A DNA stretch of 34,718 nt, from assembly GCA_947487845.1 (NCBI GenBank), contig CANKYC010000002.1, positions 1 to 34,718 of the forward strand, read 5' to 3'. The notes under the pieces were generated by a model that did no database searches, was not told the DNA's origin, and worked only from the letters and a program-made list of their open reading frames with translations. Position 1 is the first letter of the stretch, and every line of letters starts with the position of its first letter. Both the position numbers and the translations under genes were made by a program. Of this stretch, positions 12,416 through 34,718 are shown in pieces. This stretch comes from Rickettsiales bacterium (GTDB lineage Bacteria > Pseudomonadota > Alphaproteobacteria > Rickettsiales > UBA1997).

Positions 12416-12488
12416 TTAATTTTCACTTTTTTTAATTTGTGTAATCCATGGACATCCTACAACCATAGCATGTAACTTGGTTTTTATT

Positions 12489-12640: not shown

Positions 12641-12674
12641 ATTTCTAGCCTCGTGTTAACTATCAATAGATTGC

Positions 12675-15315: not shown

Positions 15316-15320
15316 ATTTA

Positions 15321-16253: not shown

Positions 16254-16254
16254 A

Positions 16255-16791: not shown

Positions 16792-16812
16792 GTTTAGCAA
16801 ATATAAGATTAA

Positions 16813-17970
16813 TTAAGTTGAGAATTTTTTAAAAAATTCTTTGATATTTGTGGTTACTTTTTGGCATTCGCTTTCCCTCAAAGAATGAAATATAGGCAAT
16901 CGTAAAATTCTTTCAGAATGGCTCGTAGTATATCTATCATCGCCAACAAATTCCCCAAATTGCTTTCCGATTTTTGTAGAATGAAGCGGAATATAATGAA
17001 AAACCGCTAAGATATTTTGCTGCATTAAAAAAGTAATCAGCTGGCTTCTTTGTTCCATAGTTTTTGTTTTGATCCAAAATATGTGAGCGTTGTTCTCATT
17101 GCGCTGCGGAATATTTTGAACATCAATAATTCCTGCTTTCTCGAGCTCCAGCAATTCACTTTTATAAAAATTCCAGATCTTGAGCCTTGCGGCTTTTACT
17201 TCAGCTAGTTTCTGTAATTGATAAAATAAAAATGCAGCGCTGATTTCACTCATCATGTAATGACCGCCAATGCTAAACCAAGAATATTTATCAACCAAAC
17301 CAAGAAGGAATTTGGATCGATTAGTGCCTTTTTCCCTTAGTATTTGAGAATCCTCAATAAATTCAGGATTATTAATTATCAGGCATCCGCCCTCACCAGC
17401 AGAGGTAATATTTTTAGTTTCATGAAATGATATTGTAGCTAAATCACCAAAACTGCCGAGCGGCTTATTATCAAAGCTCGCATCTATCGATTGCGCCGCA
17501 TCTTCGATCAAAAAAATTTGATGGCGATCGCAAACCTGACGCAAAATATTTAAATCAGAACTAATACCGCCATAATTTACCGCGATGATTGCTGCGGTAT
17601 TGGGAGTAATTGCCGCTAAAACCAAAGACTCGTCAATATTCATGCTATCAGGCTTCACATCGACGAACTTAATGCGAAATCCAAACTTGGCAAAACTATT
17701 GGCCGTAGAAACAAAAGTATAACTCGGCATTATCACTTCTGGAGCCTGAGATTTAGAGCGAGATTTTAATATCAAGGCGCACATTTCAAGGGCTGACGTA
17801 CATGAGTTTGTAAGAAAAACTTTTGCAAAACCATATCGCTCTTCCAAAAATTTTTCGCAAGATTTGGTAAATTCTCCGTTTCCCGAAATGTGTAGAAAAT
17901 TATTCTCAAACTTTTCCGTCAAAAAAGTTAATTCTTCCCCTAAAAATAAAGGCTTATTAAATGGTATCAT
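16813..17970 (-). CDS. DegT/DnrJ/EryC1-family sugar aminotransferase, WecE (dTDP-4-keto-6-deoxyhexose 4-aminotransferase)-like.
   Basis: 385-aa ORF. It begins MIPFNKPLFLGEELTFL and has the PLP-lysine context ISFHETKNITSAGEGGCLIIN, both very close to the pattern I recall for E. coli WecE. Confidence 0.8.
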   Translation of the reverse strand: MIPFNKPLFLGEELTFLTEKFENNFLHISGNGEFTKSCEKFLEERYGFAKVFLTNSCTSALEMCALILKSRSKSQAPEVIMPSYTFVSTANSFAKFGFRIKFVDVKPDSMNIDESLVLAAITPNTAAIIAVNYGGISSDLNILRQVCDRHQIFLIEDAAQSIDASFDNKPLGSFGDLATISFHETKNITSAGEGGCLIINNPEFIEDSQILREKGTNRSKFLLGLVDKYSWFSIGGHYMMSEISAAFLFYQLQKLAEVKAARLKIWNFYKSELLELEKAGIIDVQNIPQRNENNAHIFWIKTKTMEQRSQLITFLMQQNILAVFHYIPLHSTKIGKQFGEFVGDDRYTTSHSERILRLPIFHSLRESECQKVTTNIKEFFKKFST

Positions 17971-17994
17971 TTTCTCTTTTTTCTAAAATTAGAT

Positions 17995-19911
17995 TTATCT
18001 CTTCTCCAAAATCTGTTTTTTCGCCGTTTCAATAAACTCTTCCACGCTCATAACTTTTTGCGATTCCTCGCCTAATTTACGCACTGAAACCGAGCCATTT
18101 TCGGCTTCTTTTTTTCCAATTGCTAAAATATATGGAACTTTTTTCAAAGAATGTTCGCGGATTTTATAATTGATTTTTTGCGCGTCAAAATCGCCTTCAA
18201 CCCTAAATCCCGCCGCTTTCAATTTTTCAAAAACTTGCGCGCCATAAGTGTCGGAATCATTAGTAATTGTAGCGATAACCATTTGAGTTGGTGCCAGCCA
18301 AAGTGGAAATTTTCCAGCATAATTTTCAATCAACATGCCGATAAATCTTTCAAAACTTCCAAGAATTGCGCGATGCAACATAACGGGACGTTTTTTGGTT
18401 CCGTCGCTTGCGATATAGCTGGCATCAAGCCTTTCTGGCAAAATGAAATCGGCTTGCAAAGTTCCGCATTGCCATTCGCGCTTGATTGCGTCAACTAAAG
18501 TAAACTCAAGTTTTGGCCCATAAAATGCACCTTCACCCGGATTAATTTCACATTCCAAACCGGCCGCTTTCACAGCTTCAAACAAAGCTGCTTCAGCCTT
18601 ATCCCAAGTTTCATCTGTTCCAGCGCGCACTAGCGGGCGGGTTGAAAATTTAACTTTCACATTTTCAAAACCAAAATCACTATAAACTTCTTTTAACAAT
18701 TCACAAAATGCCACAGTTTCAGAATTAACCTGACTTTCTTCGCAAAAAATATGGGCATCGTCTTGCGTAAAGGCGCGCACGCGCATGATTCCATGAAGCG
18801 AACCCGAAGATTCGTTGCGATGACAAGAGCCAAATTCGGCCATTCTAAGCGGCAATTGACGGTAAGATTTTAACTCTTGGTTAAAAATTTGAATATGCCC
18901 CGGACAATTCATTGGCTTCACCGCCAGAGTTCTTTCTTCGCTTTCAGCAATAAACATATTTTCGCGGAATTTTTCCCAATGCCCCGATTTTTCCCACAAA
19001 ACTTTATCAATTAATTGCGGAGTTTTTACTTCAACGTAATTATTTTTTTCGAGTTTAGCGCGAATATAATTTTCAATTTCGCGAAAAATTGTCCAACCTT
19101 TCGGGTGCCAAAACACTGATCCTACGGCTTCTTCTTGAATGTGAAATAAATCCATTTCGCGGCCGATTTTACGGTGATCTCTTTTTGCCGCTTCTTCCAA
19201 AACATGCAGATAATTTTTTAAACTTTCTTCACTTTCCCAAGCTGTTCCATAAATTCTTTGCAACATTTCATTTTTGGCATCGCCGCGCCAGTAAGCGCCA
19301 GCCAGTTTCATCAATTTAAAATGTTTGATGTGAGAAGTTGAAGGCGCGTGCGGCCCGCGACAAAGATCGATAAAATTACCTTGTCTGTACAAAGTAATAT
19401 CTTGATCTTGAGGAATTGAAGAAATGATTTCGGCTTTATATTTTTCGCCAATTGATTGAAAGAATTTCACCGCGTCGTCACGCTTCCAAACCTCGCGCAC
19501 CAAGACTTCGTCGCGTTTTACAATTTCGCGCATTTTATTTTCAATTTTTTCTAAATCATCCAAAGCGAAAGGATTTTTGCAGGCAAAATCATAATAAAAT
19601 CCATTTTCAATTGCTGGCCCGATTGTAACTTGCGTTTCGGGAAATAATTCTTTCACCGCTTCCGCCATTAAATGCGCCGCGTCATGACGAATAATATCCA
19701 AAGCATCCGCGCCACTTTTGGGCGTGATAATTTCAATTTTTGCATCAGTTTCAATTGCCCGCGATAAATCGCGCGCCTCACCATTTACCTTGATTGCCAA
19801 AGCAACTTTAGCCAAAGAAATTGAAATTGATTTGGCGATTTCAACACCAGAAATTCCACGAACAAATTCACGCGCAGCGCCGTCTGGAAAAGTGATTTTA
19901 ATTTGGGACAT
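17995..19911 (-). CDS. thrS: Threonyl-tRNA synthetase.
   Basis: 638-aa ORF with an N-terminal TGS domain ([11 protein letters not shown]), the editing-domain [11 protein letters not shown], class II core motifs (FRGPHAPST-like [44 protein letters not shown]) and an anticodon-binding tail. Confidence 0.96.
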
Positions 19912-19957
19912 TGTTTAAAAAATTTGAATCAGATTGCTATAAAATGCATCTTCAAAG

Positions 19958-21484
19958 CTACTTACACCAGTGCAAGGAAAAATTTCCTTTATCCATATAT
20001 TTCTGGTCGCATTGGTCTAAAATTTCTTTTGGTATCACCCCAACATTGCTAAATGGATATTCGGGGCGCATTACCACCACTTGATTGCCATTAACAAAAT
20101 AGCTCACCAACATTGCAGCTGAATTATTTTGTTTTGGCATATCGAGACATTCTTTAAAATGCCTGCTTCCCGGCAATAAATATTCCAATTCAAAATTGCT
20201 ACCACAAGCAAAGAGAGTTACTCCTCGAGCTTCGAGCGCTTTAACTTCTTCTACAATTTCTAGCTGCTCTTTTAATTTGTCAGTTTTTTCAAAGTTAAAA
20301 TTAAAATCATAATTAATCATAACCAATCTTCCGATTACCAAAAAGAAAATCAGGAAAGATGTAATTGCCGAATGCAATTGGTTTTTATAATCAATATTTG
20401 CCACCATCGCAGCGAGACAGACGCAAAAATAAAGAAGACCAGTCATAAAATGGCGATAAGAACCAACCGCGGAAAAATTTATCCACCAAATCAGATGAAT
20501 AACAAAACATCCAAATAAAGTAACCGCTATTAAGCTAGAAGTTGAATGGCGCTTTAAAGAAAAACAGGAGATTAGAATTATTGATAAAAGAGGGTAAAAA
20601 CAGCTCACACCAAAAATTGCATTTAAACTGGAAAAACGTTGCCAAGGATTATTTTCAACTGCGCCTATTATTTTATAAAATGCAGCACTATCAACTTGGA
20701 ATTCTTTATATTCTCGCCAACCCAAACTTAAGATTTTTACTATCTCAAACATAAAAATTGGCGCGATAACTGCGGCAGCCGCAAATGTTAAAAGCTTTAT
20801 TTTTTTAGAAATAATTATTTTTTTATCACAAATAGTTCGCAGCGCAAAAATTAAAGATACTGTTGCAACCGCGAGAGCTGTGATGGTTTTTGCCATTATA
20901 GCTAAACCAAGAAATAATCCGCCTGCTAAGATTTTTTTCCAATTTGTGGTTGCTGGTAATAATAAAAATATTCCAGATATAACGCAAAGCGCTGCCGGAA
21001 CCTCGCCCATTAACAAATGCCACAAAGCTATGTTATCATTGGTCTCAATCCCAAAAGACTCTTCATTGCCAGTAGAAAATAACAGACAAAAAAACAAGGC
21101 TAAAAAACAAAATAGCCATTTTTTTTCTTTCTCAAAAATAGTATCAGCGGCAATAAAAATTATGAAAATTAAACTCCAGATCAAAAAAACATTAGCTAAA
21201 CTTATAGCCCAATAAGTATTTCCAAAAAGAAAAATTGCAGCCGCAGCTGGGAGCACTACTGTTGGACCCGCAGTTGCGATTAAGTAACTAAAAGGATATA
21301 ATTTATCAAACATAGCGGCGCTATATCCTTCACTATTAAGCATGTTTTTTGCCAATTGCGCAAAGCCAGCATCATCTCGCCAAACTGGATAGAAAAAAAC
21401 GCTGTAAATTTGCAAAAACAATAAAATTAGAGCTAGTCCGAGAGCTAAAGTTTTTGGATAGCTCAATTTAAAAAATATTTTCAA
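19958..21484 (-). CDS. ArnT/PMT-like GT-C membrane glycosyltransferase, paralogue 2.
   Basis: 508-aa ORF with an apparent TTG start. The first-loop motif is VWRDDAGFAQLAKNMLNSEGY, and there are multiple TM helices. It is clearly paralogous to 21498..22985 along its full length, including the C-terminal ACGSNFELEYLLPGSRHFKEC. Confidence 0.65.
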   Translation of the reverse strand: MKIFFKLSYPKTLALGLALILLFLQIYSVFFYPVWRDDAGFAQLAKNMLNSEGYSAAMFDKLYPFSYLIATAGPTVVLPAAAAIFLFGNTYWAISLANVFLIWSLIFIIFIAADTIFEKEKKWLFCFLALFFCLLFSTGNEESFGIETNDNIALWHLLMGEVPAALCVISGIFLLLPATTNWKKILAGGLFLGLAIMAKTITALAVATVSLIFALRTICDKKIIISKKIKLLTFAAAAVIAPIFMFEIVKILSLGWREYKEFQVDSAAFYKIIGAVENNPWQRFSSLNAIFGVSCFYPLLSIILISCFSLKRHSTSSLIAVTLFGCFVIHLIWWINFSAVGSYRHFMTGLLYFCVCLAAMVANIDYKNQLHSAITSFLIFFLVIGRLVMINYDFNFNFEKTDKLKEQLEIVEEVKALEARGVTLFACGSNFELEYLLPGSRHFKECLDMPKQNNSAAMLVSYFVNGNQVVVMRPEYPFSNVGVIPKEILDQCDQKYMDKGNFSLHWCK

Positions 21485-21497
21485 TGTGATTCTTATA

Positions 21498-22985
21498 TTA
21501 CTCGCACTTAAAAATTGAGAAGTTTGCGGTTGTCAAATATTCTTCCTTGCAGCGCCCCAATATCTGATTTGGAAGATTGATAAATTTTCCCATATATTGA
21601 TTATGCTTGATAAAAAGCACCTTTTGCGGCTCCACAAAGAAATTGACCAGCATTACTTTTTGAGGGACGTAATTTTCAAAGAAGTGCCCGCATTCCTCAA
21701 AGTTGCGAGATTTTGGCAACAAATATTCGAGCTCAAAATTATTACCGCACGAAATCATTTTAAAATCCTGCTTCTGAAGAGTTTTTATCTCTTCAACCAC
21801 CATTTTCTGCTCTTGTAGGCTTGGATTATCATTAAGCATTATTGTAATTTCACTCGGATAAGAAACCAGTAAAGAGATGATAAAAGCAGAAACAAAAAAC
21901 ATCTGAAATTGTTTTTTATACTCAAGCTTACAAATCAACAAAAAAATTCCCGCGAAGTAACAAAAACAACCTATTGATAAATGCCTAAAAGCGTATGGAA
22001 TTGCATAATTTATCCACCAAGTTACTTGTAAAAAAGAGGCGAGAAGCAGCGCCATTCCCGCTAAAAAATAAGGAGAATTAAGATTCTTTTTACCAGAGGA
22101 ATAAATTATATAAATCGTAGTTGGCAAGATTGTAAGCGCAGCTAATCCAAAATATCCTACTAAACTTGGCAATGAAGAGAGAAATGGCTTTTCAAAAAAA
22201 GCATTTGTGCGGTAAAAATTTAAATTTTGTTGATGCAATTCTAAATAATCTTTCCAACCCAACGCAATAATCTTGATTGACTCAAAAAGAAAATAAGGCG
22301 CAACAAAACACAAAACCGGAATTGCAATCCACATAATCGGTTTTCTGTCAAAGAGTATCCTCGCCGTCACCATTATTAAAATCGCTGACGCAGAAATGGC
22401 GGAAAGGGTTTTAATAATCAACGCCAGCCCAAGCATTATACCGCCACTTACTAATCTGGATTTATCAAGATTTTTGAAAGAAAAAATTAAAGCTGCTAAA
22501 ATAACAAGAAGTGTGGTCGGAATTTCACCCATTAACCTCATCCACAAATATAATTTTACACCCCCATCGCCACGGGAAAAAAATAACATCATGAATAATG
22601 TTAAAAAGCAAAATGCCCATTTTCTTTTTTCACCAACGACTTCTTTGGAAGCGATAAAAATTGCAAAAAGTAAAACCCAAATCAGTAAAACTGCGGTCAA
22701 TCCGGGAACCCAGTAATAATTTCCAAAAATAAAAATCATTACAGCCGCAGGCACTATTAACGCCGGACCCGAGGAAATGCCATAATGAAATTTATAATCT
22801 TGATCAAAAAAAACCGCGCTAAATCCATTGCCATTCGCCAAATTTTTTGCAACGCTGGCAAAAAATGCATCGTCTCGCCAGACCGAAAAATTGAAAACAC
22901 CATATATCTGATATAAAAACAAAGAAGCCGCCAAAACAATCAACGCATATTTAAAAAAATTATTTGGTCGAAAATCGCAATTCAT
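21498..22985 (-). CDS. ArnT/PMT-like GT-C membrane glycosyltransferase, paralogue 1.
   Basis: 495-aa ORF with the first-loop motif VWRDDAFFASVAKNLANGNGF and multiple TM helices. The C-terminal region reads SCGNNFELEYLLPKSRNFEEC. The start overlaps the stop of the upstream methyltransferase (ATGA). Confidence 0.65.
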   Translation of the reverse strand: MNCDFRPNNFFKYALIVLAASLFLYQIYGVFNFSVWRDDAFFASVAKNLANGNGFSAVFFDQDYKFHYGISSGPALIVPAAVMIFIFGNYYWVPGLTAVLLIWVLLFAIFIASKEVVGEKRKWAFCFLTLFMMLFFSRGDGGVKLYLWMRLMGEIPTTLLVILAALIFSFKNLDKSRLVSGGIMLGLALIIKTLSAISASAILIMVTARILFDRKPIMWIAIPVLCFVAPYFLFESIKIIALGWKDYLELHQQNLNFYRTNAFFEKPFLSSLPSLVGYFGLAALTILPTTIYIIYSSGKKNLNSPYFLAGMALLLASFLQVTWWINYAIPYAFRHLSIGCFCYFAGIFLLICKLEYKKQFQMFFVSAFIISLLVSYPSEITIMLNDNPSLQEQKMVVEEIKTLQKQDFKMISCGNNFELEYLLPKSRNFEECGHFFENYVPQKVMLVNFFVEPQKVLFIKHNQYMGKFINLPNQILGRCKEEYLTTANFSIFKCE

Positions 22986-23689
22986 TTAGATTCAACCTCG
23001 ACGGAAAACATATATTGAGCGCAAGCGATAGCTCTAAAAAAAGGAATTGTTTCAACTGTTTTTTCAAAAAATTTCAAAAAATTTGCCGCTTTATCTGGAC
23101 AAAAAAACGGCACTAATCCCACAAATTCATCAAAAACTATTGTGCCGTCATATTTTTCAAAAATCCGGCGCAGACTTGCCGGATTAAATGATTGTTCGCC
23201 ATGTTCGATGTGATAGCGCGAAGTTTTTTCAATAATTTTTAAAATCGGACTATAACCATTTGGCTCCATCACCAAAATTTTTTTTGCTAATTTACAGGCA
23301 ATTTCAATGCCTTTTTCCAGGTCAGGAAGATGATGTAAAACACCGCGCAAAACCGCTATGTCATATGGCTCTTGCGGAATTTCCATTTGATATAAATCTA
23401 CACATTCGAAACGTAAATTTTTAACTTCTTTATATTTTTTGGCCGCTGCTTTAACCGCATTTTCTACTGGATCAATTGCCACAACCAAAGCAGGTTTTTG
23501 CTGCGCCAACTCATAACTATAAGTTCCATCACCACAACCAATATCAATTATTTTTTTCCCAGTAAAAATATCCATCGCCAAAATTGATTTGCTGATACGG
23601 GCATTGGACATGCGACCAGAAAGGGCTTGGGTTGTATAAGCATAACCACCAAATTCATTAACATCTTGCGAAAAAGCTTTATTAGTCAT
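22982..23689 (-). CDS. Class I SAM-dependent methyltransferase.
   Basis: The ORF 22982..23734 is probably over-extended. The ATG at 23689 (MTNKAFSQD...) lies 1 nt after the upstream stop at 23691-23693. Motif I is IIDIGCGDGTYSYELA, and VLHHLPD is the post-motif II region. Confidence 0.8.
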   Translation of the reverse strand: MTNKAFSQDVNEFGGYAYTTQALSGRMSNARISKSILAMDIFTGKKIIDIGCGDGTYSYELAQQKPALVVAIDPVENAVKAAAKKYKEVKNLRFECVDLYQMEIPQEPYDIAVLRGVLHHLPDLEKGIEIACKLAKKILVMEPNGYSPILKIIEKTSRYHIEHGEQSFNPASLRRIFEKYDGTIVFDEFVGLVPFFCPDKAANFLKFFEKTVETIPFFRAIACAQYMFSVEVESK

Positions 23690-23690
23690 T

Positions 23691-25670
23691 CTATTTTCCA
23701 AAAATATTTTTAGAGACATCAATAGCCACAACATTGCCGCGCCTAATCAAACTCTTGCGAATAAAATGCGGACGACTTTTTACTTCTTCAAAAATCTTGG
23801 CAATATATTCGCCAATAATACTGATCGCAAAAAGATTTAATGAACCAAAAAATGTTACCAAAACTATTGTAGTTGTGACGCCACGTGGCGCAGATTCGGG
23901 GAAGAAATATTTAAGTAAGATTTGCGCAACCATTACGAATCCCGAAACAAATAACATCACCCAACCAAAAGCGCTAAGGATGTTGAGTGGGACGTAGCTG
24001 AATGAAAAAATCCCTTTTTTCGCCCAACCTAAATTCTTAAAAATGCTATTTGTGGTGCGACCAAATTTTCTTTCGGGGCGAATATAATCAACGCCAGTTT
24101 GTTTGAAGCCAGCATAAGCGCGAAGCCCGCGCAAAAATAAATCGCGCTCTTGAAAACGCAGTAAAACTTCAACAACTTTTTTATCCATCAACGCAAAATC
24201 TCCGGCATCATGTGGAATTTTTATATAGGAAAAAGCGGCAAAAAGACGGTAGAAAATTTTGTAAAAAACTCGCATGTAAAAAGGCGCGTCGCGACTTACG
24301 CGACGACCGTATACAACTTCATATCCCTCGCGCCATTTTTGCACAAATTGTTCAATCATTTCTGGCGGATCTTGCAAATCACCATCCATCAAAACACAAC
24401 CATTTTTAGTTGCTAAATCAAGACCACTTTTAAAAGCAGCTTGTGATCCAAAATTTCTGGAATGAGTAATTCCAATCACATGTTCATCATGTTCGGAAAT
24501 TTTTTGAATCACTTCTTCGCTATCATCGGGAGAACCGTCATTTACAAAAATAATTTCGTAGTCGAGCTTTAATTTTTGCATCACTTTTGTAATGCGCTCA
24601 TACATTTCAGGAATTGCTTGCGCGTCTTTATAACAAGCAATTATCACTGAAACTGAATGAACGTCATCAAGCTCATCGCGCTTACGCTTGGTTGCGCGCT
24701 TATCCAAATAAACTTCGAGGTTTTCTTTGACCCAAATAGTGGTTTTAAGCAAACCTTCTTCAAAATAAGTTTTGGCGTTCCAGCCTAAAATTTGCGCCGC
24801 TTTATTTGAATTTGAATACCAATTAGTTACGTCCCATTTATGCGCGGGATAATTAAATTTAGGCTCGCCTTTAATTTCATAAATTTTCTGCGAAATTTCG
24901 GCAATATCGCCAATCGTGGTTTTGGTTCCCGTTCCAATGTTAAAAGATTCGCCGTAAAAATTTTGTGGCAGCGCAAAAGCAGCATCAATAAAGGCTTCGC
25001 AAGCATCATCAATATATATGAAATCGCGTGAAATATCGGGATTGGTTAAAGTTGTAAATTCTTTTTGCAAACCTTTTAAAATAACTTGCGGAATCAAACG
25101 CGATGAATCTTCAAAAGGCCCGTAAACCGAATAAAGACGCAAGTTGGCAATTTTCATGCCCTTTTTTTTGCCATAAAAATGAATCAGATTAGAAATCGCC
25201 GCTTTAGTAACCGCATAATGACTATTGGCATTTAAAGTCGCGTCTTCTTTGGGCGCAGCCGATTCGTCGCCATATTCGGAAGAACTTCCAGCATTAATAA
25301 AACAATCAATTTGACGCTGAAAACAGGCTTCAATTAAACGTTGGGTAAAAATTACATTAGTTTCGTAAATGCGCTCTTCATCATTTTGAAAATCGTAAGC
25401 GCCGTAAGAAATGCAGTTAAAAATAGTTTGGGCTTTGGTCTGATTTAAGGCTAAATCAAGCTTGTCTTTCACCAGCAAATCTCCAGCAATTATATGCTTG
25501 GAATCAATGTCTTCAAGCCGCCAATTTGGCAATTTAGAACTGGTTGCAAAAACATCATTGCGATATTGCAACAACATACGCAGCAAATTTGCGCCGATAA
25601 AACCACTGGCTCCAAGTACGAGAATTGGCCCTTTAAGAGTAACAATTTTTTGAGCGAGAGTTTGAGTCAT
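23691..25670 (-). CDS. Fusion protein: an N-terminal extended-SDR NAD-dependent sugar epimerase/dehydratase and a C-terminal GT2 polyprenyl-phosphate glycosyltransferase with TM anchors.
   Basis: 659-aa ORF. Residues about 1-320 carry VLGASGFIGANLL (GxxGxxG) and YAVTKAA (YxxxK). Residues about 335-659 carry VSVIIACYKD...YEIIFVNDGSPDDS...SRNFGSQAAFKSGLD...LMDGDLQDPPE plus two C-terminal TM helices, as in ArnC/GtrB. Confidence 0.8.
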   Translation of the reverse strand: MTQTLAQKIVTLKGPILVLGASGFIGANLLRMLLQYRNDVFATSSKLPNWRLEDIDSKHIIAGDLLVKDKLDLALNQTKAQTIFNCISYGAYDFQNDEERIYETNVIFTQRLIEACFQRQIDCFINAGSSSEYGDESAAPKEDATLNANSHYAVTKAAISNLIHFYGKKKGMKIANLRLYSVYGPFEDSSRLIPQVILKGLQKEFTTLTNPDISRDFIYIDDACEAFIDAAFALPQNFYGESFNIGTGTKTTIGDIAEISQKIYEIKGEPKFNYPAHKWDVTNWYSNSNKAAQILGWNAKTYFEEGLLKTTIWVKENLEVYLDKRATKRKRDELDDVHSVSVIIACYKDAQAIPEMYERITKVMQKLKLDYEIIFVNDGSPDDSEEVIQKISEHDEHVIGITHSRNFGSQAAFKSGLDLATKNGCVLMDGDLQDPPEMIEQFVQKWREGYEVVYGRRVSRDAPFYMRVFYKIFYRLFAAFSYIKIPHDAGDFALMDKKVVEVLLRFQERDLFLRGLRAYAGFKQTGVDYIRPERKFGRTTNSIFKNLGWAKKGIFSFSYVPLNILSAFGWVMLFVSGFVMVAQILLKYFFPESAPRGVTTTIVLVTFFGSLNLFAISIIGEYIAKIFEEVKSRPHFIRKSLIRRGNVVAIDVSKNIFGK

Positions 25671-25672
25671 TT

Positions 25673-26566
25673 TTAATTCAATTTGAAGGCGCTAATTACA
25701 GTTTCTTTGGTTAATTGTGATTCTTGGCGATGAAAATTTTGCGAGCCGTAAAATCCAGAAACATAACCTTGAGCGTGAAGATGTAAAAAAGATTTTAACG
25801 CAATATTTTTTGCAAGAATTTTGGCGGCAATCATTTGCCCAATTCCGCCTTGCGCCACATGTTCTTCTAATACGCAAAGTTTTTTGTTTGATATTTCTTG
25901 CGCTAATTCTTGAGGAAAATCATCGAACAAAGGAAGTTCGCCAAGCACCCAAATTGTTGGGCGCGCGTCCGCTTCTTCGCTTTGAAAATCATAAAGCAAA
26001 TTGCTCGCAATCGAGCCAGTTACAATCAAAACTCCCAAATCGCCATCAAGAACTTTGCGCCATTTTGCGTAAGAAATTTCTGCTGTTTTTTGCGCCAAAC
26101 CCAGACGTAAAAAAGCTGGTTTATTTAAATCAGAAATTCGTGAAATCATCGCGCCAATATCAAAATCAAATGCCGGAATAAAAGCGTGCATATTTTGTAA
26201 GCACAAAAGCGAACCATAATCTTCAATCGCATGATGAGTTGCGCCCATAACGCCGTAGCCATAACCGCCACCATTTCCAATCAAAGTTACCGGTAAATTA
26301 TGCAGACAAATATCGTTGCGGATTTGTTCAAAAGGCCGCGCATAAATAAAAGGTGAAATGCTGTAACAAAAAACCGACAAACCAGTTTTAGCAATTCCAG
26401 CCGCTGTTGAAACCATGTTTTGTTCGGCAATTCCGGCATTTATAAAATGATCTTTCATAACTTCGCGCAGCGGTTCGAGCGCTTTAAAACCCAAATCTCC
26501 AGTTAAAAAAACAAAAGGTTTTTTGGCGAAAGCCTTAATCATTTCAGCGCAAAAAATTTCTCTCAT
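25673..26566 (-). CDS. Split transketolase, C-terminal (pyrimidine-binding) subunit.
   Basis: 297-aa ORF with INAGIAEQNMVSTAAGIAKTG and GATHHAIEDYGSLLCLQNM. The start overlaps the stop of the N-subunit gene (ATGA). Confidence 0.8.
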   Translation of the reverse strand: MREIFCAEMIKAFAKKPFVFLTGDLGFKALEPLREVMKDHFINAGIAEQNMVSTAAGIAKTGLSVFCYSISPFIYARPFEQIRNDICLHNLPVTLIGNGGGYGYGVMGATHHAIEDYGSLLCLQNMHAFIPAFDFDIGAMISRISDLNKPAFLRLGLAQKTAEISYAKWRKVLDGDLGVLIVTGSIASNLLYDFQSEEADARPTIWVLGELPLFDDFPQELAQEISNKKLCVLEEHVAQGGIGQMIAAKILAKNIALKSFLHLHAQGYVSGFYGSQNFHRQESQLTKETVISAFKLN

Positions 26567-27435
26567 AAATTTTCGATTTCCTTTTTTGCTTTGTTATAAA
26601 GTTCATCATTAAGCGGCAAATAATGCCATTGCATCTGGTTTTCCATAAATGAAATTCCGTGGCCTTTTATTGTTTTCATCAAAAAAATTTGCGGACGATT
26701 TGAAGCGCGAGAAAGTTTTTTTAAATCCGCTTCTTCATGACCATTAATTTCGGTAATTTCAAAACCCGTATTTCCCATTGAAATACGGGGTGGGGATCCC
26801 CGCAAAGCGGGGCGCGACTCGTGTCGCGTTTCCGTATCCCGAAGGGATAAAGGACTTTCAAAATTAAAAACGGCAAAAATTTCATGCAGTTTTTTTAAAT
26901 TTAACGAAGCAATTTCTTCAGTAGTTCCAAAACCTTGCAAGCCGTTGCAATCAATAATTACGGTGACATTTTTTAGCTGCTGATGATTTAAAAAAACCAA
27001 CGCTTCAAAATTACTGCCTTCTTGCCATTCGCCGTCGGACATTAAACAAAAAATTCGCCCTTCTTTTTTTTGTAATTTATTTCCTACAGACATCCCGCAA
27101 GCAAGCCCCAAGCCGTGCCCCAGACTTCCAGTGGCAAAAGGAATTTCCGCAATCCAGTTTGGTACCGGATGTCCGGCAAGTTTAGTTTGATCTTTATGAA
27201 AAGTTAAAAGTTGTTCATCAGAAATTTTTCCAACCGACCATAAAGCAATATAAAGCGCACCCGCAGCGTGACCTTTGGACAAAATAAAATGATCTTCTTT
27301 TTGCATGATATTGTGATGCAAATAAAGAATTGCATCAAGCGAAGAGAGGTTTCCGCCAATGTGACCAACTTTGGCTTCAAAATGCATTTTGAGCAATCGC
27401 AGGCGCGCTTGTTTTTGCAGCTCTGGGAATATCAT
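26563..27435 (-). CDS. Split transketolase, N-terminal (ThDP-binding) subunit, carrying an in-frame 33-codon repeat insertion.
   Basis: 290-aa ORF with LSKGHAAGALY, GSLGHGLGLACG and the ThDP motif SDGEWQEGSNFEAL...NGLQ. The segment SPLSLRDTETRHESRPALRGSPPRISMGNTGFE is encoded by a GC-rich cassette. Confidence 0.8.
   Translation of the reverse strand: MIFPELQKQARLRLLKMHFEAKVGHIGGNLSSLDAILYLHHNIMQKEDHFILSKGHAAGALYIALWSVGKISDEQLLTFHKDQTKLAGHPVPNWIAEIPFATGSLGHGLGLACGMSVGNKLQKKEGRIFCLMSDGEWQEGSNFEALVFLNHQQLKNVTVIIDCNGLQGFGTTEEIASLNLKKLHEIFAVFNFESPLSLRDTETRHESRPALRGSPPRISMGNTGFEITEINGHEEADLKKLSRASNRPQIFLMKTIKGHGISFMENQMQWHYLPLNDELYNKAKKEIENL
26765..26863. mobile_element. GC-rich multi-hairpin cassette (91-bp core plus one copy of an 8-bp direct repeat) inserted in frame in the transketolase N-subunit gene.
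   Basis: TTTCAAAA at 26757-26764 and 26856-26863 flanks the core. The core is 54/91 G+C by hand count. It contains four consecutive stem-loops: 26765-26789, 26798-26812, 26813-26828 and 26835-26849. Confidence 0.6.
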
Positions 27436-27614
27436 TAAAAAATTTATTAAGATTTTGGACGCGTTTTTTTAAAACTATTTAGACATGTCAGACTTTCAAT
27501 AAAGAATGATATTCTAAAAACAAAAAATTGATTGCAGTTTTGTAACTAAATTTGTTTGATGCGCGTCTTCAAAAAAATCTCACAATAATTCTTTTTAGAA
27601 GCGTTTTTTATTGG

Positions 27615-27690
27615 GGGGCTATAGCGCAGTTGGTAGCGCGCTTGCATGGCATGCAAGAGGTCACGAGTTCGACTCTCGTTAGCTCCACCA
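27615..27690 (+). tRNA. tRNA-Ala (anticodon GGC), CCA encoded.
   Basis: The 76-nt cloverleaf is GGGGCTA TA GCGC AGTTGGTA GCGC G CTTGC ATGGCAT GCAAG AGGTC ACGAG TTCGACT CTCGT TAGCTCC ACCA. It has the G3:U70 Ala identity pair, and the anticodon arm is identical to the E. coli tRNA-Ala(GGC) pattern. Confidence 0.95.
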
Positions 27691-27831
27691 GCCTTCGCTC
27701 TTATGAGCTTCGGCTGGCAGGCCAGCCCAACGGGCGGGACTGACGGACGGAGATCGTTAGAGCGAAGGCTGCCCGCCATAGCTCCCGAGGCAAAAACTCG
27801 GAGCTTATGTTCATCCAAAGCGACGGCGGGC
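27691..27831 (+). other. GC-rich, highly structured trailer directly abutting the tRNA-Ala 3' end; a candidate ncRNA or a relic of an inserted element.
   Basis: A perfect 10-bp long-range stem joins gccttcgctc (27691-27700) and gagcgaaggc (27760-27769), enclosing the hairpin ggctgg-cagg-ccagcc (27712-27727). A 7-bp stem joins gcccgcc (27771-27777) and ggcgggc (27825-27831), enclosing the imperfect hairpin 27778-27808. The composition contrasts sharply with the AT-rich flanks. Confidence 0.35.
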
Positions 27832-28027
27832 TTTACCAACAAACTTATACTAATTTCTTATCACCCTAAGAAAATGTATTACACCTACATCCTAAAATTG
27901 ATCCCCAATCCATACCAATCCCATATCAGCTATACCAAAGCCACTTAAACTCAAACAGTTTGTTTGCTATTTCAGTAACTTGAAAAAGATGGGATTATTT
28001 AAAAAAAATTTCATTTTATTTTAGCAT

Positions 28028-28246
28028 CGCAAAACCCCCCAACCCCCCTTAACAGGGGGGCTTTATCCGAGTTCGATCTCAAAAAGCCCCCTTAACAGAG
28101 AAGCTTTATCCGAGTTCGATCTCAAAAAGCCCCCTTAACAGAGAAGCTTTATCCGAGTTCGATCTCAAAAAGCCCCCTTAACAGAGAAGCTTTATCCGAG
28201 TTCGATCTCAAAGCCCCCCTGTTAAGGGGGGTTGGGGGGTTTTGCG
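28028..28246. repeat. Element with perfect 34-bp terminal inverted repeats enclosing four tandem 43-bp repeats.
   Basis: The left TIR is cgcaaaaccccccaaccccccttaacaggggggc (28028-28061), the exact reverse complement of 28213-28246. Tandem units start at 28044, 28087, 28130 and 28173. Units 2 and 3 are identical, unit 1 has 3 differences, and unit 4 is 2 nt shorter. Confidence 0.9.
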
Positions 28247-28354
28247 AATTTGAATTATTATGCCAAAGCAAAATGGTCGCGTTTCAAATAGCTTTGGTAT
28301 ATATCCACATTTAAATTTCACCCAACTCCAAATCGTAATCACCATTTTTAAAAA

Positions 28355-29665
28355 ATGACTAAGCAAAAAATCTCAATTTTCTGGTTTCGTCGCGACCTAC
28401 GGCTGGAAGACAATGCCGCATTATGGCAGGCTTTAAAAGCGGGGAATAAAATTCTGCCTATTTTTATTTTTGATAAAAATATTCTTGAGCATCTTGAAAA
28501 TAAAAAAGATGCCCGCGTTTTATTTATTCACCAAGAAATTTCGCGCTTGAAAAAAGAGTTGGAAAAACATGGTTCGTCACTGCGCGTTTTTTACGAAACT
28601 CCGCTCGCAGCTTATAAAAAAATAATCGCCGAATATGATGTGGCTGAAGTTTTTGCTAATCGCGATTACGAACCATACGCCAGAGCGCGTGACAAAGAAA
28701 TTTATGAATTTCTAAAATCACATAAAATTGATTTTAAAAGCCGCAAAGATCATGTGATTTTTGAAAAAAATGAAATTCTTAAAGATGACGGCAAGCCTTA
28801 CGTTGTATTTACGCCGTACAGCAAAAAATGGAAAAGCAGCGCTAATGATTTTTTCTTAAAAAAATATCCCAGCGAAAATTACTTAAAAAATCTTTATCCT
28901 TGTTCCGCTTTTGAACTGCCGAAAATTTCTGAAATTGGTTTTGTTGATTTTGATTTTGCTTATTTTCCCAAACGCGAACCCGACATCAAAATAATTGAAA
29001 ACTATGGCGCTAACCGCGATTTTCCTAGCGTCAAAGGCACCAGCCGCTTAAGTTTACATCTGCGTTTTGGAACAATTAGCATTCGCCGCGTTTGTCAAAT
29101 TGCTTCTGTAATAAGCGAAAAATGGCTTAATGAATTGATCTGGCGCGATTTTTACCAAATGATAATGTACCACTTTCCTTATTGCGCCAACAGCTCATTC
29201 AAGCCGCAATATGACAAAATAAAATGGCGTAATGACAAAGAGGAATTCAGAAAATGGTGCGCTGGCAAAACCGGTTATCCAATTGTTGATGCGGGTATGC
29301 GCGAACTCAACGAAACCGGCTTCATGCACAATCGCGTACGCATGATTGTTGCTAGTTTTTTATGCAAACATCTTTTGATTGATTGGAGTTGGGGTGAAAA
29401 ATATTTCGCGCAGAAACTTCTTGATTACGAGTTGGCGAGCAATGTTGGCGGATGGCAATGGACTTGCGGCAGCGGTTGCGACAGCGCGCCATATTTTCGC
29501 ATTTTTAATCCCGACAGCCAAACTGAAAAATTTGATCCCGAATTTAAATATATCAAAAAATGGGTTCCAGAATTTGCCGATAAATCTTATGAAAAGCCGA
29601 TGGTTGATCACAAACTCGCCCGCGTCAGGTGCCTTGAAACCTACAAAATGGCGCTTGTTTCTTAA
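28355..29665 (+). CDS. phr: Deoxyribodipyrimidine photolyase / cryptochrome-family flavoprotein.
   Basis: 436-aa ORF with the N-terminal ISIFWFRRDLRLEDNAAL and a C-terminal FAD-binding region (WRDFYQ, GYPIVDAGMRELNETGFMHNRVRMIVASFL, GGWQW). Confidence 0.9.
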   Translation: MTKQKISIFWFRRDLRLEDNAALWQALKAGNKILPIFIFDKNILEHLENKKDARVLFIHQEISRLKKELEKHGSSLRVFYETPLAAYKKIIAEYDVAEVFANRDYEPYARARDKEIYEFLKSHKIDFKSRKDHVIFEKNEILKDDGKPYVVFTPYSKKWKSSANDFFLKKYPSENYLKNLYPCSAFELPKISEIGFVDFDFAYFPKREPDIKIIENYGANRDFPSVKGTSRLSLHLRFGTISIRRVCQIASVISEKWLNELIWRDFYQMIMYHFPYCANSSFKPQYDKIKWRNDKEEFRKWCAGKTGYPIVDAGMRELNETGFMHNRVRMIVASFLCKHLLIDWSWGEKYFAQKLLDYELASNVGGWQWTCGSGCDSAPYFRIFNPDSQTEKFDPEFKYIKKWVPEFADKSYEKPMVDHKLARVRCLETYKMALVS

Positions 29666-34586: not shown

Positions 34587-34718
34587 ATTATTTTTATTCC
34601 AGATTTTGGCATATTTTGAGCGCTTTTTTGGTAAAATTTCGAAAAATATCTGGATATATTTTGAGAAATTTTACCAAAAAATAAGCCGAAATAGGACGAA
34701 ATATGGAATAAAAATAAT
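34587..34718. repeat. AT-rich palindromic element C (at least 132 bp; it reaches the window edge).
   Basis: The termini attatttttattcca (34587-) and tggaataaaaataat (-34718) are perfect inverted repeats. The inner arms ttttttggtaaaatttc and gagaaattttaccaaaaaa pair. The core ttttggtaaaa(a)ttt is shared with family A. It starts 3 nt after the trpC stop. Confidence 0.8.

What the first reader, a model, noticed from the sequence alone, without database searches (positions are those of the whole stretch)
19958..27435. Operon combining a split transketolase, an SDR::GT2 fusion, a methyltransferase and two tandem GT-C paralogues: a lipid-linked sugar pathway that fits no textbook route
Seen in the sequence: six minus-strand genes are packed with ATGA overlaps or gaps of 1-13 nt.
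- TktN, 27435-26563.
- TktC, 26566-25673.
- SDR::polyprenyl-P GT2 fusion, 25670-23691.
- SAM methyltransferase, 23689-22982.
- GT-C paralogue 1, 22985-21498.
- GT-C paralogue 2, 21484-19958.

Established knowledge:
- ArnC/GtrB/DPM1-type GT2 enzymes load a sugar onto polyprenyl phosphate.
- ArnT/PMT/Emb-type GT-C enzymes use such lipid-linked donors on the periplasmic face.
- ThDP transketolases move two-carbon ketol units.

Inference: the operon would build a C2-extended or branched, possibly methylated, sugar on a polyprenyl-phosphate carrier. It would then transfer that sugar to two acceptors, or to two positions (lipid A, LPS core, or protein). The set lacks the formyltransferase, deformylase and ArnEF of the Arn pathway. 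It also lacks GtrA, and the DprE1/E2 pair of the arabinan route. It therefore does not match the pathways I know.
Basis: partly seen in the sequence, partly recalled or inferred. Interest (0 to 1): 0.75.

Follow-up and report, generated by a model that had tools for sequence, protein, structure and literature searches.

The report
Transketolase-linked lipid-carrier sugar glycosylation operon
An uncultured Rickettsiales bacterium carries a six-gene operon that joins a modified transketolase pair to the enzymes that load a sugar onto a membrane lipid carrier and transfer it outside the cell; its core recurs across at least a dozen bacterial phyla, and nothing I could search describes what sugar it makes.

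Summary
Six tightly packed minus-strand genes (27435-19958) encode TktN, TktC, an SDR::GT2 fusion, a class-I methyltransferase and two paralogous membrane proteins.

- **GT-C paralogues:** neither has a Pfam or NCBIfam match. An AlphaFold model of the first (pLDDT 90.5) matches ArnT and other GT-C enzymes. An invariant Asp-Asp pair follows the first predicted membrane helix.
- **Dedicated transketolase:** this is not a housekeeping enzyme. Across 79 species from more than 12 phyla, TktN and TktC sit beside the fusion in about 90% of loci. A methyltransferase sits there in about two thirds.
- **Altered active site:** the pair keeps all cofactor and catalytic residues. Two canonical substrate-site residues are replaced family-wide (His to Gly 69/69, Asp to Met 64/69).
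- **Variable partner:** the GT-C gene differs between lineages.

Best reading: an NDP-sugar is oxidised by the SDR domain, given a two-carbon unit by the transketolase and methylated. It is then loaded onto polyprenyl phosphate and transferred in the periplasm. Only domain identities, synteny and fold are shown here; the chemistry is inferred.

No curated family cut-off was met, and nine literature searches found no description. I rate it a new variant of a known kind, of moderately high interest.

The parts
26563..27435 (-). TktN: ThDP/Mg-binding (PP) half of a split transketolase-like enzyme. It carries a 99-nt in-frame palindromic insertion at about 26767-26865.
   Evidence: Pfam Transketolase_N E 7e-18. 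Best solved relative is the N chain of the Carboxydothermus split transketolase 6yak, 137 bits. The three catalytic His positions, the Mg-binding Asn and the C-terminal His are kept in 71/71 family members, and the Mg-binding Asp in 70/71; GDG is SDG in 69/71. The insertion is absent from L007, L008 and L009.
25673..26566 (-). TktC: pyrimidine-binding plus C-terminal half of the split transketolase-like enzyme.
   Evidence: Pfam Transket_pyr E 6e-20. Matches 6yaj/6yak C chain at 81 bits, and DXS at about 44 bits. The ThDP-activating Glu is kept in 69/69. Family-wide substitutions: ATHAG His to Gly 69/69, GEDG Asp to Met 64/69, Ser to Gly 69/69.
23691..25670 (-). Fusion of an NAD-dependent extended SDR (residues about 14-320) with a GtrB/ArnC/DPM1-type polyprenyl-phosphate GT2 (about 335-640, with two C-terminal membrane helices).
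   Evidence: Pfam Epimerase E 3e-44 and Glycos_transf_2 E 3e-28. The GT2 half matches GtrB sll0501 (5ekp) at 214 bits and ArnC at 136 bits. The SDR half matches UDP-GlcA 4-epimerases 6zl6 and 6kv9 at 85-91 bits. Invariant across 19 sequences: G20/S22/G23/G26, D39, Y152 and K156, R215-D216-F217, and D429-G-D-L-Q-D-P-P436. Foldseek confirms an extended SDR plus GtrB.
22982..23689 (-). Class-I SAM-dependent methyltransferase. An alternative start lies at 23734.
   Evidence: Methyltransf_31/23/25/12/11, E 1e-14 to 1e-17. A class-I methyltransferase lies within 300 nt downstream of the fusion in 43 of 74 species loci (Pfam on cluster representatives). No informative solved relative.
21498..22985 (-). 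GT-C-fold glycosyltransferase, paralogue 1: about 13 predicted membrane helices plus a C-terminal mixed alpha/beta domain.
   Evidence: No Pfam or NCBIfam hit. AlphaFold pLDDT 90.5, pTM 0.92. Foldseek best hits are ArnT 5f15 (E 9e-7, TM 0.58), ALG12, AglB, AftB, ALG9, PglB and EmbA/B. D38 and D39 (WRDDA), directly after the first predicted helix, are invariant in 39 homologues; C494 is invariant and C479 at least 90% conserved.
19958..21484 (-). GT-C-fold glycosyltransferase, paralogue 2 (TTG start).
   Evidence: 34% identical to paralogue 1 over the full length, E 1e-84, and keeps the WRDDA motif. The tandem pair is also in L007. Only one homologue was found in L086 and in L009.

Best explanation
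The operon is an extracytoplasmic glycosylation system of the 'polyprenyl-phosphate sugar synthase plus GT-C transferase' kind. Its sugar is custom-built by a dedicated transketolase-like enzyme.

Proposed sequence (steps 1-3 and 5 are inferred; step 4 rests on family assignment; the enzyme assignment in step 6 rests on fold):
1. The N-terminal SDR domain binds a common NDP-sugar and oxidises it with NAD+ to a keto- or aldehydo-sugar. A dehydration or decarboxylation may accompany this.
2. The TktN/TktC heterodimer forms dihydroxyethyl-ThDP from a central ketose phosphate or hydroxypyruvate. It adds this two-carbon hydroxyacetyl unit to the new carbonyl, giving a C-branched or chain-extended sugar.
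3. The methyltransferase methylates the product.
4. The C-terminal GT2 domain transfers the finished sugar to polyprenyl phosphate at the inner face of the membrane.
5. The lipid-linked sugar is flipped by an unidentified factor.
6. The two GT-C paralogues transfer the sugar in the periplasm to two acceptors or two positions, or act as a heterodimer.

The TktN-TktC-SDR::GT2(-MT) core is an ancient, mobile cassette. The GT-C partner is swapped to suit each lineage's envelope.
For: **Identities**
- Domain and motif evidence for all six proteins.
- GT-C fold from a high-confidence model.

**Functional linkage of the transketolase to the fusion**
- Among 79 species-level loci from Acidobacteriota, Planctomycetota, Bacteroidota, Armatimonadota, Chloroflexi, Paenibacillus, Myxococcales, Bdellovibrionaceae, Verrucomicrobia, Fibrobacteres and Alpha-, Beta- and Gammaproteobacteria, TktN is within 3 kb on the same strand in 67/72 and TktC in 69/76. 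A methyltransferase is there in 49/74.
- The same cassette turns up in four loci found through the protein database: a cyanobacterium (Aphanizomenon, L001), Capsulimonadaceae (L003), an unnamed 2.5-Mb contig (L004) and the window relative L086.
- In Cytophagales the fusion sits between TktN and TktC.

**The transketolase looks catalytic but has a new substrate site**
- The ThDP-activating Glu is kept in 69/69. All five conserved His positions and the Mg-binding Asn are kept in 71/71, and the Mg-binding Asp in 70/71.
- The canonical substrate-site His (to Gly, 69/69), Asp (to Met, 64/69) and Ser (to Gly, 69/69) are replaced.

**The SDR domain probably takes an NDP-sugar**
- It keeps the NAD motif, the Y-x3-K pair and the R-D-F motif. 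That motif is typical of NDP-sugar-binding extended SDRs (the reading of the motif is my own knowledge).

**No dedicated precursor supply**
- No nucleotidyltransferase, Ugd or GtrA recurs with the cassette, which fits a common precursor.

**Variable GT-C partner**
- 62 of 80 loci have a large polytopic membrane protein within 7 kb, falling into 58 sequence clusters. Four of ten sampled gave weak or borderline PMT_2 matches.

**Chemical precedent**
- Split-gene transketolases are proposed to add hydroxyacetyl to a keto-sugar in miharamycin and amipurimycin. ThDP enzymes such as YerE branch 4-keto NDP-sugars (PMC12247030).
Against: - No step of the chemistry is demonstrated, here or in any paper I found.
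- The SDR reaction type is unresolved. The nearest solved relatives are 4-epimerases, which do not release a keto product. The invariant Glu132 in SSSEYG lies one position away from the catalytic Glu of UXS, ArnA and GMD-type enzymes.
- The fusion model is poor (pLDDT 70) and says nothing about channelling.
- The miharamycin precedent is itself unproven.
- The order of steps could differ, with tailoring on the lipid-linked sugar.
- No flippase was identified.
- TktN in this genome carries a 33-residue insertion whose effect on activity is unknown.
- The survey covers the 80 best of at least 595 matches, so the adjacency frequency may be lower among more distant fusions.
Confidence: 0.5

Rival explanations
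1. Same components, different order. The GT2 domain first makes an ordinary polyprenyl-phosphate sugar. The fused SDR domain, the transketolase and the methyltransferase then tailor the lipid-linked sugar at the cytoplasmic face, much as DprE1/DprE2 epimerise decaprenyl-phospho-ribose or ArnD deformylates Und-P-Ara4FN.
For: - Fusing the SDR to a membrane-anchored GT2 places it at the membrane.
- Family-wide loss of the canonical sugar-phosphate-binding His and Ser in TktC fits a non-standard, possibly lipid-phosphate-bearing, substrate.
- One Arg of the substrate channel is invariant in 69/69 and could bind the lipid phosphate.
Against: - The SDR domain keeps the R-D-F and C-terminal R-x-W-D motifs that in characterised relatives bind the nucleotide of an NDP-sugar (own knowledge).
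- TktN, TktC and the methyltransferase show no membrane segments (sequences).
Confidence: 0.2
2. The transketolase-like pair does not build a C-C branch on the sugar. One option is that it transfers a glycolyl (C2) unit to an oxygen or nitrogen, as the two-component transketolase Rif15 does in rifamycin L formation. Another is that it makes or consumes a small-molecule precursor used by the other enzymes.
For: - Two-component transketolases with non-classical transfers are reported in secondary metabolism. The papers were listed (PMC6002545 on rifamycin; tetrahydroisoquinoline papers). The details of those reactions come from my own knowledge, as I did not open the papers.
- The substrate-site substitutions show only that the substrate is not canonical.
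Against: - The near-obligate pairing with an oxidoreductase domain is most simply explained by the SDR creating the carbonyl acceptor.
- No carrier protein, lipoyl domain or other acceptor protein recurs in the neighbourhood.
Confidence: 0.15
3. The TktN/TktC pair is the organism's housekeeping pentose-phosphate transketolase and merely lies upstream of an ordinary Gtr/Arn-type modification operon.
For: - The closest solved relative is a genuine split transketolase, 6yak.
- All cofactor and catalytic residues are present.
- I could not search the rest of this genome for a second transketolase.
Against: - Adjacency to the fusion holds in about 90% of 79 species from more than 12 phyla, including an arrangement with the fusion between the two halves.
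- The canonical substrate-site His and Asp are replaced family-wide.
- Scores lie far below the NCBIfam transketolase cut-offs: 180 plus 54 bits against 488.
- Carriers include Paenibacillus, Methylobacterium, Hydrogenophaga and cyanobacteria. These are known to have full-length transketolases (own knowledge, not tested here).
Confidence: 0.03
4. The locus is a divergent copy of a pathway that is already characterised: Arn (Ara4N), Gtr (glucose), Pgf (protein O-glycosylation) or RgtE/LpsL (galacturonic acid).
For: - The GT2 half resembles PgfS (234 bits) and ArnC (155 bits).
- The SDR half resembles UDP-GlcA 4-epimerases, as LpsL does.
- Pgf also has an epimerase and two GT-C proteins (own knowledge).
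Against: - Every curated cut-off is missed.
- None of those systems contains a ThDP enzyme or a methyltransferase.
- ArnA's formyltransferase, ArnB, ArnD, ArnE/F and GtrA are all missing from the operon.
- The fusion is 57-60% identical across phyla, marking it as its own orthologous group.
Confidence: 0.04

Closest known systems
Three-component periplasmic glycosylation systems (GtrA/GtrB/GtrV; Gram-positive GacI-GacL, SccN-SccM, CsbB-YfhO)
   Same: A GtrB-type GT2 with C-terminal membrane helices makes a polyprenyl-phosphate monosaccharide. A GT-C enzyme transfers it outside the cytoplasm. The GT-C part is the variable, acceptor-specific component.
   Different: No GtrA flippase gene is present. 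The GT2 is fused to an SDR. A transketolase pair and a methyltransferase are core members, implying that the sugar is synthesised de novo rather than taken from the UDP-Glc or UDP-GlcNAc pool.
Arn pathway for lipid A aminoarabinose (ArnA, B, C, D, T, E/F)
   Same: An SDR oxidises an NDP-sugar to a keto intermediate that is then tailored. An ArnC-like GT2 loads it onto undecaprenyl phosphate. An ArnT-like GT-C transfers it. ArnT is the best structural match for paralogue 1.
   Different: The tailoring enzyme is a ThDP transketolase plus a methyltransferase, not a transaminase plus a formyltransferase. The SDR is fused to the GT2, not to a formyltransferase. ArnD and ArnE/F are absent. The ArnC cut-off is not met and no NCBIfam family, ArnT included, matched either paralogue.
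Streptococcus mutans Pgf system (PgfS, PgfM1, PgfE, PgfM2)
   Same: It combines a GtrB-type GT2, an SDR epimerase and two large membrane proteins (the last point is my own knowledge). PgfS is the best NCBIfam hit for the GT2 half, at 234 bits.
   Different: The score is below the PgfS cut-off of 500. Pgf has no transketolase or methyltransferase, and its epimerase is a separate protein.
Split-gene transketolases proposed for sugar branching in miharamycin and amipurimycin; ThDP branching enzymes YerE, ErwE and KbDH
   Same: An oxidoreductase is thought to create a keto-sugar, and a two-subunit transketolase is proposed to add a hydroxyacetyl unit (PMC12247030). YerE-type enzymes add C2 or longer units (up to about C8) to 4-keto NDP-sugars for O-antigens.
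   Different: Those transketolases are known only from Streptomyces secondary-metabolite clusters and remain biochemically unproven. None is linked to a polyprenyl-phosphate GT2 or a GT-C. YerE belongs to a different ThDP superfamily (decarboxylase type).
Mycobacterial decaprenyl-phospho-arabinose route (UbiA-type transferase, DprE1/DprE2, Emb/Aft GT-C)
   Same: A sugar is remodelled by redox chemistry in connection with a polyprenyl-phosphate carrier, and several paralogous GT-C enzymes use it. AftB and EmbA/B are structural matches.
   Different: That route starts from PRPP and a prenyl transferase, not a GT2. It uses an FAD oxidase and a reductase, with no ThDP enzyme.

Membership tests
Transketolase (EC 2.2.1.1, pentose-phosphate type) | ThDP/Mg2+ binding motif (G-D-G ... 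N) and the cofactor-activating Glu | tested here: met
   Asp kept in 70/71, Asn in 71/71 and Glu in 69/69. The first Gly of GDG is Ser in 69/71.
Transketolase (EC 2.2.1.1, pentose-phosphate type) | Conserved catalytic histidines of the ketol-transfer site | tested here: met
   The His residues in GH(I/P)GG, SKGHA, GHP, WH and (A/G)(T/S)H are kept in 69-71 of 69-71 members. The mapping to E. coli H26, H66, H100, H261 and H473 comes from memory.
Transketolase (EC 2.2.1.1, pentose-phosphate type) | Substrate-channel residues that bind the sugar phosphate and the acceptor 2-hydroxyl (E. coli H461, S385, D469) | tested here: not met
   Measured against the genuine split transketolase 6yak: His to Gly 69/69, Ser to Gly 69/69, Asp to Met 64/69.
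Transketolase (EC 2.2.1.1, pentose-phosphate type) | Score at or above the curated NCBIfam equivalog cut-off | tested here: not met
   The best model, NF004559, gives 180 bits for TktN and 54 bits for TktC against a cut-off of 488. DXS models also fall below their cut-offs.
Polyprenyl-phosphate glycosyltransferase (GT2; GtrB/ArnC/DPM1 type) | GT-A domain with the D-x-D-L-Q-x-P-P metal and donor motif | tested here: met
   Glycos_transf_2 E 3e-28. D429-G-D-L-Q-D-P-P436 is invariant in 19 sequences. Matches GtrB 5ekp at 214 bits with about 35% identity.
Polyprenyl-phosphate glycosyltransferase (GT2; GtrB/ArnC/DPM1 type) | C-terminal transmembrane helices anchoring the catalytic domain | tested here: met
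   Long hydrophobic helices are predicted at 560-589 and 598-631, with moderate confidence. The alignment to GtrB runs through to residue 638.
Polyprenyl-phosphate glycosyltransferase (GT2; GtrB/ArnC/DPM1 type) | Membership of a characterised equivalog (ArnC or PgfS) | tested here: not met
   ArnC scores 155 bits against 529, and PgfS 234 against 500.
Polyprenyl-phosphate glycosyltransferase (GT2; GtrB/ArnC/DPM1 type) | Transfer of a sugar from an NDP-sugar to polyprenyl phosphate | not testable with these tools
   This needs an enzyme assay or lipid LC-MS.
Extended SDR acting on NDP-sugars | GxxGxxG NAD motif, a catalytic Ser/Thr and the Y-x3-K pair | tested here: met
   G20, S22, G23, G26, D39, S130, S131, Y152 and K156 are invariant; S129 is at least 90% conserved. 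Epimerase domain E 3e-44.
Extended SDR acting on NDP-sugars | Reaction class: 4-epimerase, 4,6-dehydratase, decarboxylase or oxidoreductase | tested here: inconclusive
   The best sequence matches are UDP-GlcA 4-epimerases, at only 85-91 bits. Structural matches span epimerases, dehydratases and a decarboxylase. The SSSEYG motif has an invariant Glu offset by one position from the UXS/ArnA/GMD Glu. The loop at 133-148 is modelled poorly.
GT-C fold glycosyltransferases | Multi-helix membrane fold shared with ArnT, PglB, ALG, Emb and PMT enzymes | tested here: met
   Model pLDDT 90.5. The top 19 Foldseek hits are all GT-C enzymes. ArnT gives E 9e-7 and TM 0.58.
GT-C fold glycosyltransferases | Conserved acidic motif in the first extracytoplasmic loop | tested here: met
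   D38 and D39 (WRDDA), directly after the first predicted helix, are invariant in 39 homologues and present in both paralogues. That this loop faces the periplasm is inferred from GT-C topology.
GT-C fold glycosyltransferases | Sequence membership of a described family (Pfam PMT_2, ArnT or others) | tested here: not met
   No Pfam or NCBIfam hit for either paralogue. Three of ten distant relatives sampled gave sub-threshold PMT_2 hits, E 2e-4 to 2e-3.
Arn (Ara4N) lipid A modification pathway | ArnA formyltransferase domain, ArnB transaminase, ArnD deformylase and ArnE/F flippase together with ArnC and ArnT | tested here: not met
   None of these is in the operon. The only aminotransferase in the window is a WecE-type enzyme (489 bits) in a separate, variable cassette beyond thrS.
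Gtr-type three-component system | A GtrA-family small flippase encoded with GtrB and the GT-C | tested here: not met
   There is no room for one in the operon. A GtrA query hit only its own locus, L003, among the 88 loci.

The most novel reading that the evidence does not exclude
The TktN-TktC-SDR::GT2-MT cassette is a widespread biosynthetic route, found in at least 12 phyla and not described in anything I could search. In this reading a transketolase-family enzyme adds a two-carbon unit to an oxidised nucleotide- or lipid-linked sugar. The result would be a previously unknown branched or higher-carbon, methylated monosaccharide, delivered on polyprenyl phosphate to lineage-specific GT-C enzymes. 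That would be the first ThDP-dependent step in any lipid-carrier glycosylation pathway, and a new class of envelope modification.
Probability: 0.4. Interest if true: 0.8.

Novelty: new variant of a known kind. Interest (0 to 1): 0.66.

Why it matters
Polyprenyl-phosphate sugar plus GT-C systems decorate lipid A, O-antigens, teichoic acids, arabinans and proteins. They control antibiotic resistance, phage receptors and antigenicity. Every characterised example uses a sugar taken from, or lightly edited from, the nucleotide-sugar pool.

Here a ThDP carboligase is welded by synteny to the lipid-loading enzyme across much of the bacterial tree. The fusion protein is 57-60% identical between phyla. 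That points to one conserved but unknown sugar.

Identifying it would do three things:
- Add a new monosaccharide and a new enzyme logic to bacterial glycobiology.
- Give the first physiological role and substrate for a ketone- or aldehyde-accepting split transketolase, which interests biocatalysis as a route to tertiary alcohols.
- Annotate thousands of currently generic 'epimerase/glycosyltransferase' and 'transketolase subunit' genes.

The question can be tested directly, because cultured carriers exist: Dyadobacter, Spirosoma, Paenibacillus silviterrae, Methylobacterium cerastii, Hydrogenophaga and Undibacterium.

Tried and rejected
1. **Housekeeping transketolase.** Rejected on synteny and active-site substitutions.
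2. **A module-specific GT-C family conserved across phyla.** Rejected.
   - hhalign of the window family against eight partner families gave probabilities of 1.4% or less.
   - The family HMM hit only L007 and L009 among the survey loci (L001-L085).
   - More distant family members, P0155 and P0160, sit in unrelated neighbourhoods.
3. **Reaction class of the SDR.** Left unresolved.
   - Sequence matches, Foldseek matches and the SSSEYG motif were all inconclusive.
   - The AlphaFold model of the fusion was too poor to show how the two domains sit relative to each other (pLDDT 70, pTM 0.53).
4. **Methyltransferase specificity from solved structures.** Only generic class-I hits.
5. **Recurrent precursor-supply or flippase genes.** Ugd, RmlA and GtrA do not recur.
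6. **Promoter and terminator scan of 17800-28400.** Counts did not exceed the shuffled controls, so the operon boundaries rest on gene spacing only.
7. **Rfam.** Only the tRNA; no TPP or other riboswitch.
8. **Whether the 565-aa and 597-aa neighbours are GT-C.** Profile comparison was inconclusive, at 32% and 0.2% probability.
9. **Nine literature searches.** None describes this module. The hits for Actinoplanes wps-2 and the Anabaena transketolase all4052 are unrelated contexts.

Full report
**Observation.** Reading the junctions directly shows ATGA overlaps at TktN/TktC and at MT/GT-C1. The other three junctions have gaps of 2, 1 and 13 nt. The methyltransferase has two possible starts. The ATG at 23689 lies one base after the fusion's stop codon, and a longer ORF begins at 23734. 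GT-C2 starts with TTG.

Pfam and NCBIfam confirm Transketolase_N, Transket_pyr, Epimerase plus Glycos_transf_2, and class-I methyltransferase domains.

**The two membrane proteins.** They are real paralogues, 34% identical from end to end with E 1e-84.
- The word-indexed search found 41 relatives, none annotated.
- In the alignment, Asp38-Asp39 (WRDDA), directly after the first predicted helix, is invariant. Cys494 is invariant and Cys479 nearly so, in the C-terminal domain.
- An AlphaFold model built on that alignment is confident (pLDDT 90.5, pTM 0.92).
- Its best matches in the PDB are ArnT (E 9e-7, TM 0.58), then ALG12, AglB, AftB, ALG9, PglB and EmbA/B.

The GT-C fold is therefore supported. 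An exhaustive profile search shows the family is actually large: 1,993 representatives at E 1e-3 or better. Three of ten sampled members gave sub-threshold PMT_2 similarity.

**The fusion.**
- The GT2 half is closest to GtrB of Synechocystis (5ekp, 214 bits) and to ArnC (136 bits).
- It has the invariant DGDLQDPP motif.
- Two long hydrophobic helices are predicted at its C-terminus.
- The SDR half has the NAD motif, Asp39, Tyr152 and Lys156, and an R-D-F motif.
- The SDR half is closest to UDP-glucuronate 4-epimerases, but at only about 90 bits.
- Structural matches cover epimerases, dehydratases and a decarboxylase alike.
- Its reaction class is open.

The fusion is very well conserved. The best 120 database hits are all 645-699 residues long with both domains. 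In a 19-sequence alignment, members from unrelated phyla were 57-60% identical to the window protein.

A scan of one genome per GTDB species found at least 595 relatives of the fusion. It also identified the window as the MAG 'Rickettsiales bacterium CE-Jul18-71' (99% identity).

I called ORFs in the 80 best loci and searched them with family HMMs.
- TktN lies on the same strand within 3 kb of the fusion in 67 of 72 loci with enough flank.
- TktC does so in 69 of 76.
- A class-I methyltransferase does so in 49 of 74, and in 43 of those it is within 300 nt downstream.

The carriers span Acidobacteriota, Planctomycetota, Bacteroidota, Armatimonadota, Chloroflexi, Paenibacillus, Myxococcales, Bdellovibrionaceae, Verrucomicrobia, Fibrobacteres and three proteobacterial classes. 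A cyanobacterial example (Aphanizomenon) came from the protein database. In Cytophagales the fusion lies between TktN and TktC. Four loci found independently through the protein database show the same cassette with precomputed Pfam labels.

An alignment of about 70 family members against the genuine split transketolase 6yak gives a clear picture.
- Kept: the ThDP-activating Glu (69/69), all five conserved His positions and the Mg-binding Asn (69-71 of 69-71), and the Mg-binding Asp (70/71).
- Replaced: the His of ATHAG by Gly (69/69), the Asp of GEDG by Met (64/69), and a substrate-channel Ser by Gly (69/69).

From memory, the three replaced positions correspond to E. coli H461, D469 and S385, which bind the sugar phosphate and the acceptor's 2-hydroxyl.

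The proteins also miss every NCBIfam transketolase and DXS cut-off. The pair is thus a dedicated, neofunctionalised transketolase-family enzyme, not a pentose-phosphate enzyme parked upstream.

**What is conserved and what is not.** The core is TktN, TktC and SDR::GT2, usually with a methyltransferase. The GT-C partner varies.
- 62 of 80 loci have a large polytopic membrane protein within 7 kb.
- These proteins fall into 58 sequence clusters.
- Four of ten sampled gave PMT_2 matches, from E 5e-8 to 8e-4; two passed the Pfam cut-off.
- None shows profile similarity to the window's family.

Within the window's own clade, L007 (fusion 88% identical) has the same tandem pair. L086 has a single GT-C gene, and only one homologue was found in L009. 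So only some close relatives carry the tandem pair, which points to a clade-restricted duplication. Several other lineages also carry two membrane proteins next to the cassette (L004, L010 and L014). No Ugd, nucleotidyltransferase or GtrA recurs. This suggests that the starting sugar is a common nucleotide sugar and that flipping is not done by a dedicated encoded protein.

**Mechanism.** Domain identities, fold, synteny and the active-site signature are shown. The rest is inferred.

I think the most likely course is this:
1. The SDR domain oxidises a common NDP-sugar to a carbonyl intermediate.
2. The transketolase adds a dihydroxyethyl (hydroxyacetyl) unit taken from a ketose phosphate or hydroxypyruvate.
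3. The methyltransferase modifies the product.
4. The GT2 domain loads it onto polyprenyl phosphate.
5. After flipping, the GT-C enzymes transfer it to envelope acceptors.

The nearest chemical precedent is the split-gene transketolase proposed to branch a keto-sugar in miharamycin and amipurimycin. A 2025 review stresses that this has not been shown in vitro. It also says such transketolases had been predicted only in Streptomyces (PMC12247030). YerE-type ThDP enzymes do branch 4-keto NDP-sugars for O-antigens (same review).

Two alternatives remain open. Tailoring could occur on the lipid-linked sugar. Or the C2 unit could be transferred to a heteroatom, as with Rif15 (paper listed; the reaction is from my own knowledge). 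I give the main reading about 0.5.

**Comparison with known systems.** In architecture this is a Gtr/Arn-type 'lipid-linked monosaccharide plus GT-C' system. It is not a member of the Arn, Gtr, Pgf or Rgt pathways.
- Curated cut-offs are missed.
- The accessory enzymes that define those pathways are absent.
- None of those pathways contains a ThDP enzyme.

Nine full-text searches found no description of the cassette. The library lacks most subscription journals, so an existing description cannot be excluded.

**Surroundings.** Every gene from 27435 down to 10622 is on the minus strand. After the operon come, in order:
- thrS;
- a WecE-type dTDP-4-amino-4,6-dideoxygalactose transaminase (489 bits, above its cut-off);
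- a PseH-like GNAT;
- a PhyH-family dioxygenase;
- a second GtrB/ArnC-like GT2;
- two large membrane proteins of 565 and 597 aa.

In L007, thrS is followed directly by the 597-aa protein (82% identical). The transaminase-to-565-aa block is therefore a separate, variable cassette. The link from the operon through thrS to the 597-aa-type protein also holds in L086.

**Verdict.** Novelty: a new variant of a known kind. Interest is moderately high. The cassette is widespread, internally coherent, biochemically unprecedented for a lipid-carrier pathway, and testable in cultured bacteria.

Noticed in passing
window 26767-26865 (inside TktN, minus strand): A 99-nt in-frame insertion adds 33 residues (ESPLSLRDTETRHESRPALRGSPPRISMGNTG). 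Its GC content is 51% against about 37% nearby. It folds into four hairpins (-45 kcal/mol over 117 nt) and is flanked by TTTGAA-like repeats. It is present in L006, from the same species, but absent from the closest relatives L007, L008 and L009 and from the 70-species consensus. It looks like a Rickettsia-palindromic-element-type insertion into a coding gene.
   Followed up: partly
window 27689-27771 and 28012-28262: A GC-rich palindrome abuts the 3' end of tRNA-Ala(GGC) (27615-27690, plus strand). Further on, about four copies of a 43-nt tandem repeat (28041-28255) are bracketed by 53-nt inverted repeats. Both lie in the gap between the operon and a photolyase-like gene.
   Followed up: no
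window 12486-12642, 2025-2186, 34587-34718: Three more long inverted repeats (58-65-nt arms, 81-86% complementary) lie in or next to intergenic regions, two of them running a few bases into a flanking gene end. One arm sequence recurs at 12736-12767. This suggests a family of palindromic elements scattered through the genome.
   Followed up: no
window 12777-17970 (minus strand): A second lipid-linked-sugar cassette lies beyond thrS. It holds a WecE-type transaminase (above the NCBIfam cut-off), a PseH-like GNAT, a PhyH-family dioxygenase, a second GtrB/ArnC-like GT2 and a 565-aa membrane protein. The whole block is missing in relative L007, so it is a variable insertion. No 4,6-dehydratase for it is visible in the window.
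   Followed up: partly
window 17995-19911 (thrS) and 10622-12415: thrS sits between glycan genes rather than in the usual thrS-infC-rpmI-rplT arrangement. The order GT-C, thrS, then a 597-602-aa membrane protein is conserved in L007 and L086. In L086 that membrane protein has a faint DUF6311 label.
   Followed up: partly
L086 3960-6080: In one relative, a 706-aa Gly_rich_2 protein is inserted between TktC and the fusion. That locus has only one GT-C gene.
   Followed up: no
L061-L068, L072, L074, L075, L080, L082 (Cytophagales and Spirosomataceae): The gene order is TktN, fusion, TktC, with a PMT_2 GT-C upstream. A 564-aa unannotated membrane protein and an Acyl_transf_3 O-acyltransferase lie downstream. 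This is a distinct, conserved version of the cassette.
   Followed up: partly
window 19958-22985 and proteins P0162-P0300: The window's GT-C family has no Pfam model, although it has 1,993 representatives at 50% clustering. The word-indexed search had found only 41. Distant members sit in unrelated neighbourhoods.
   Followed up: partly
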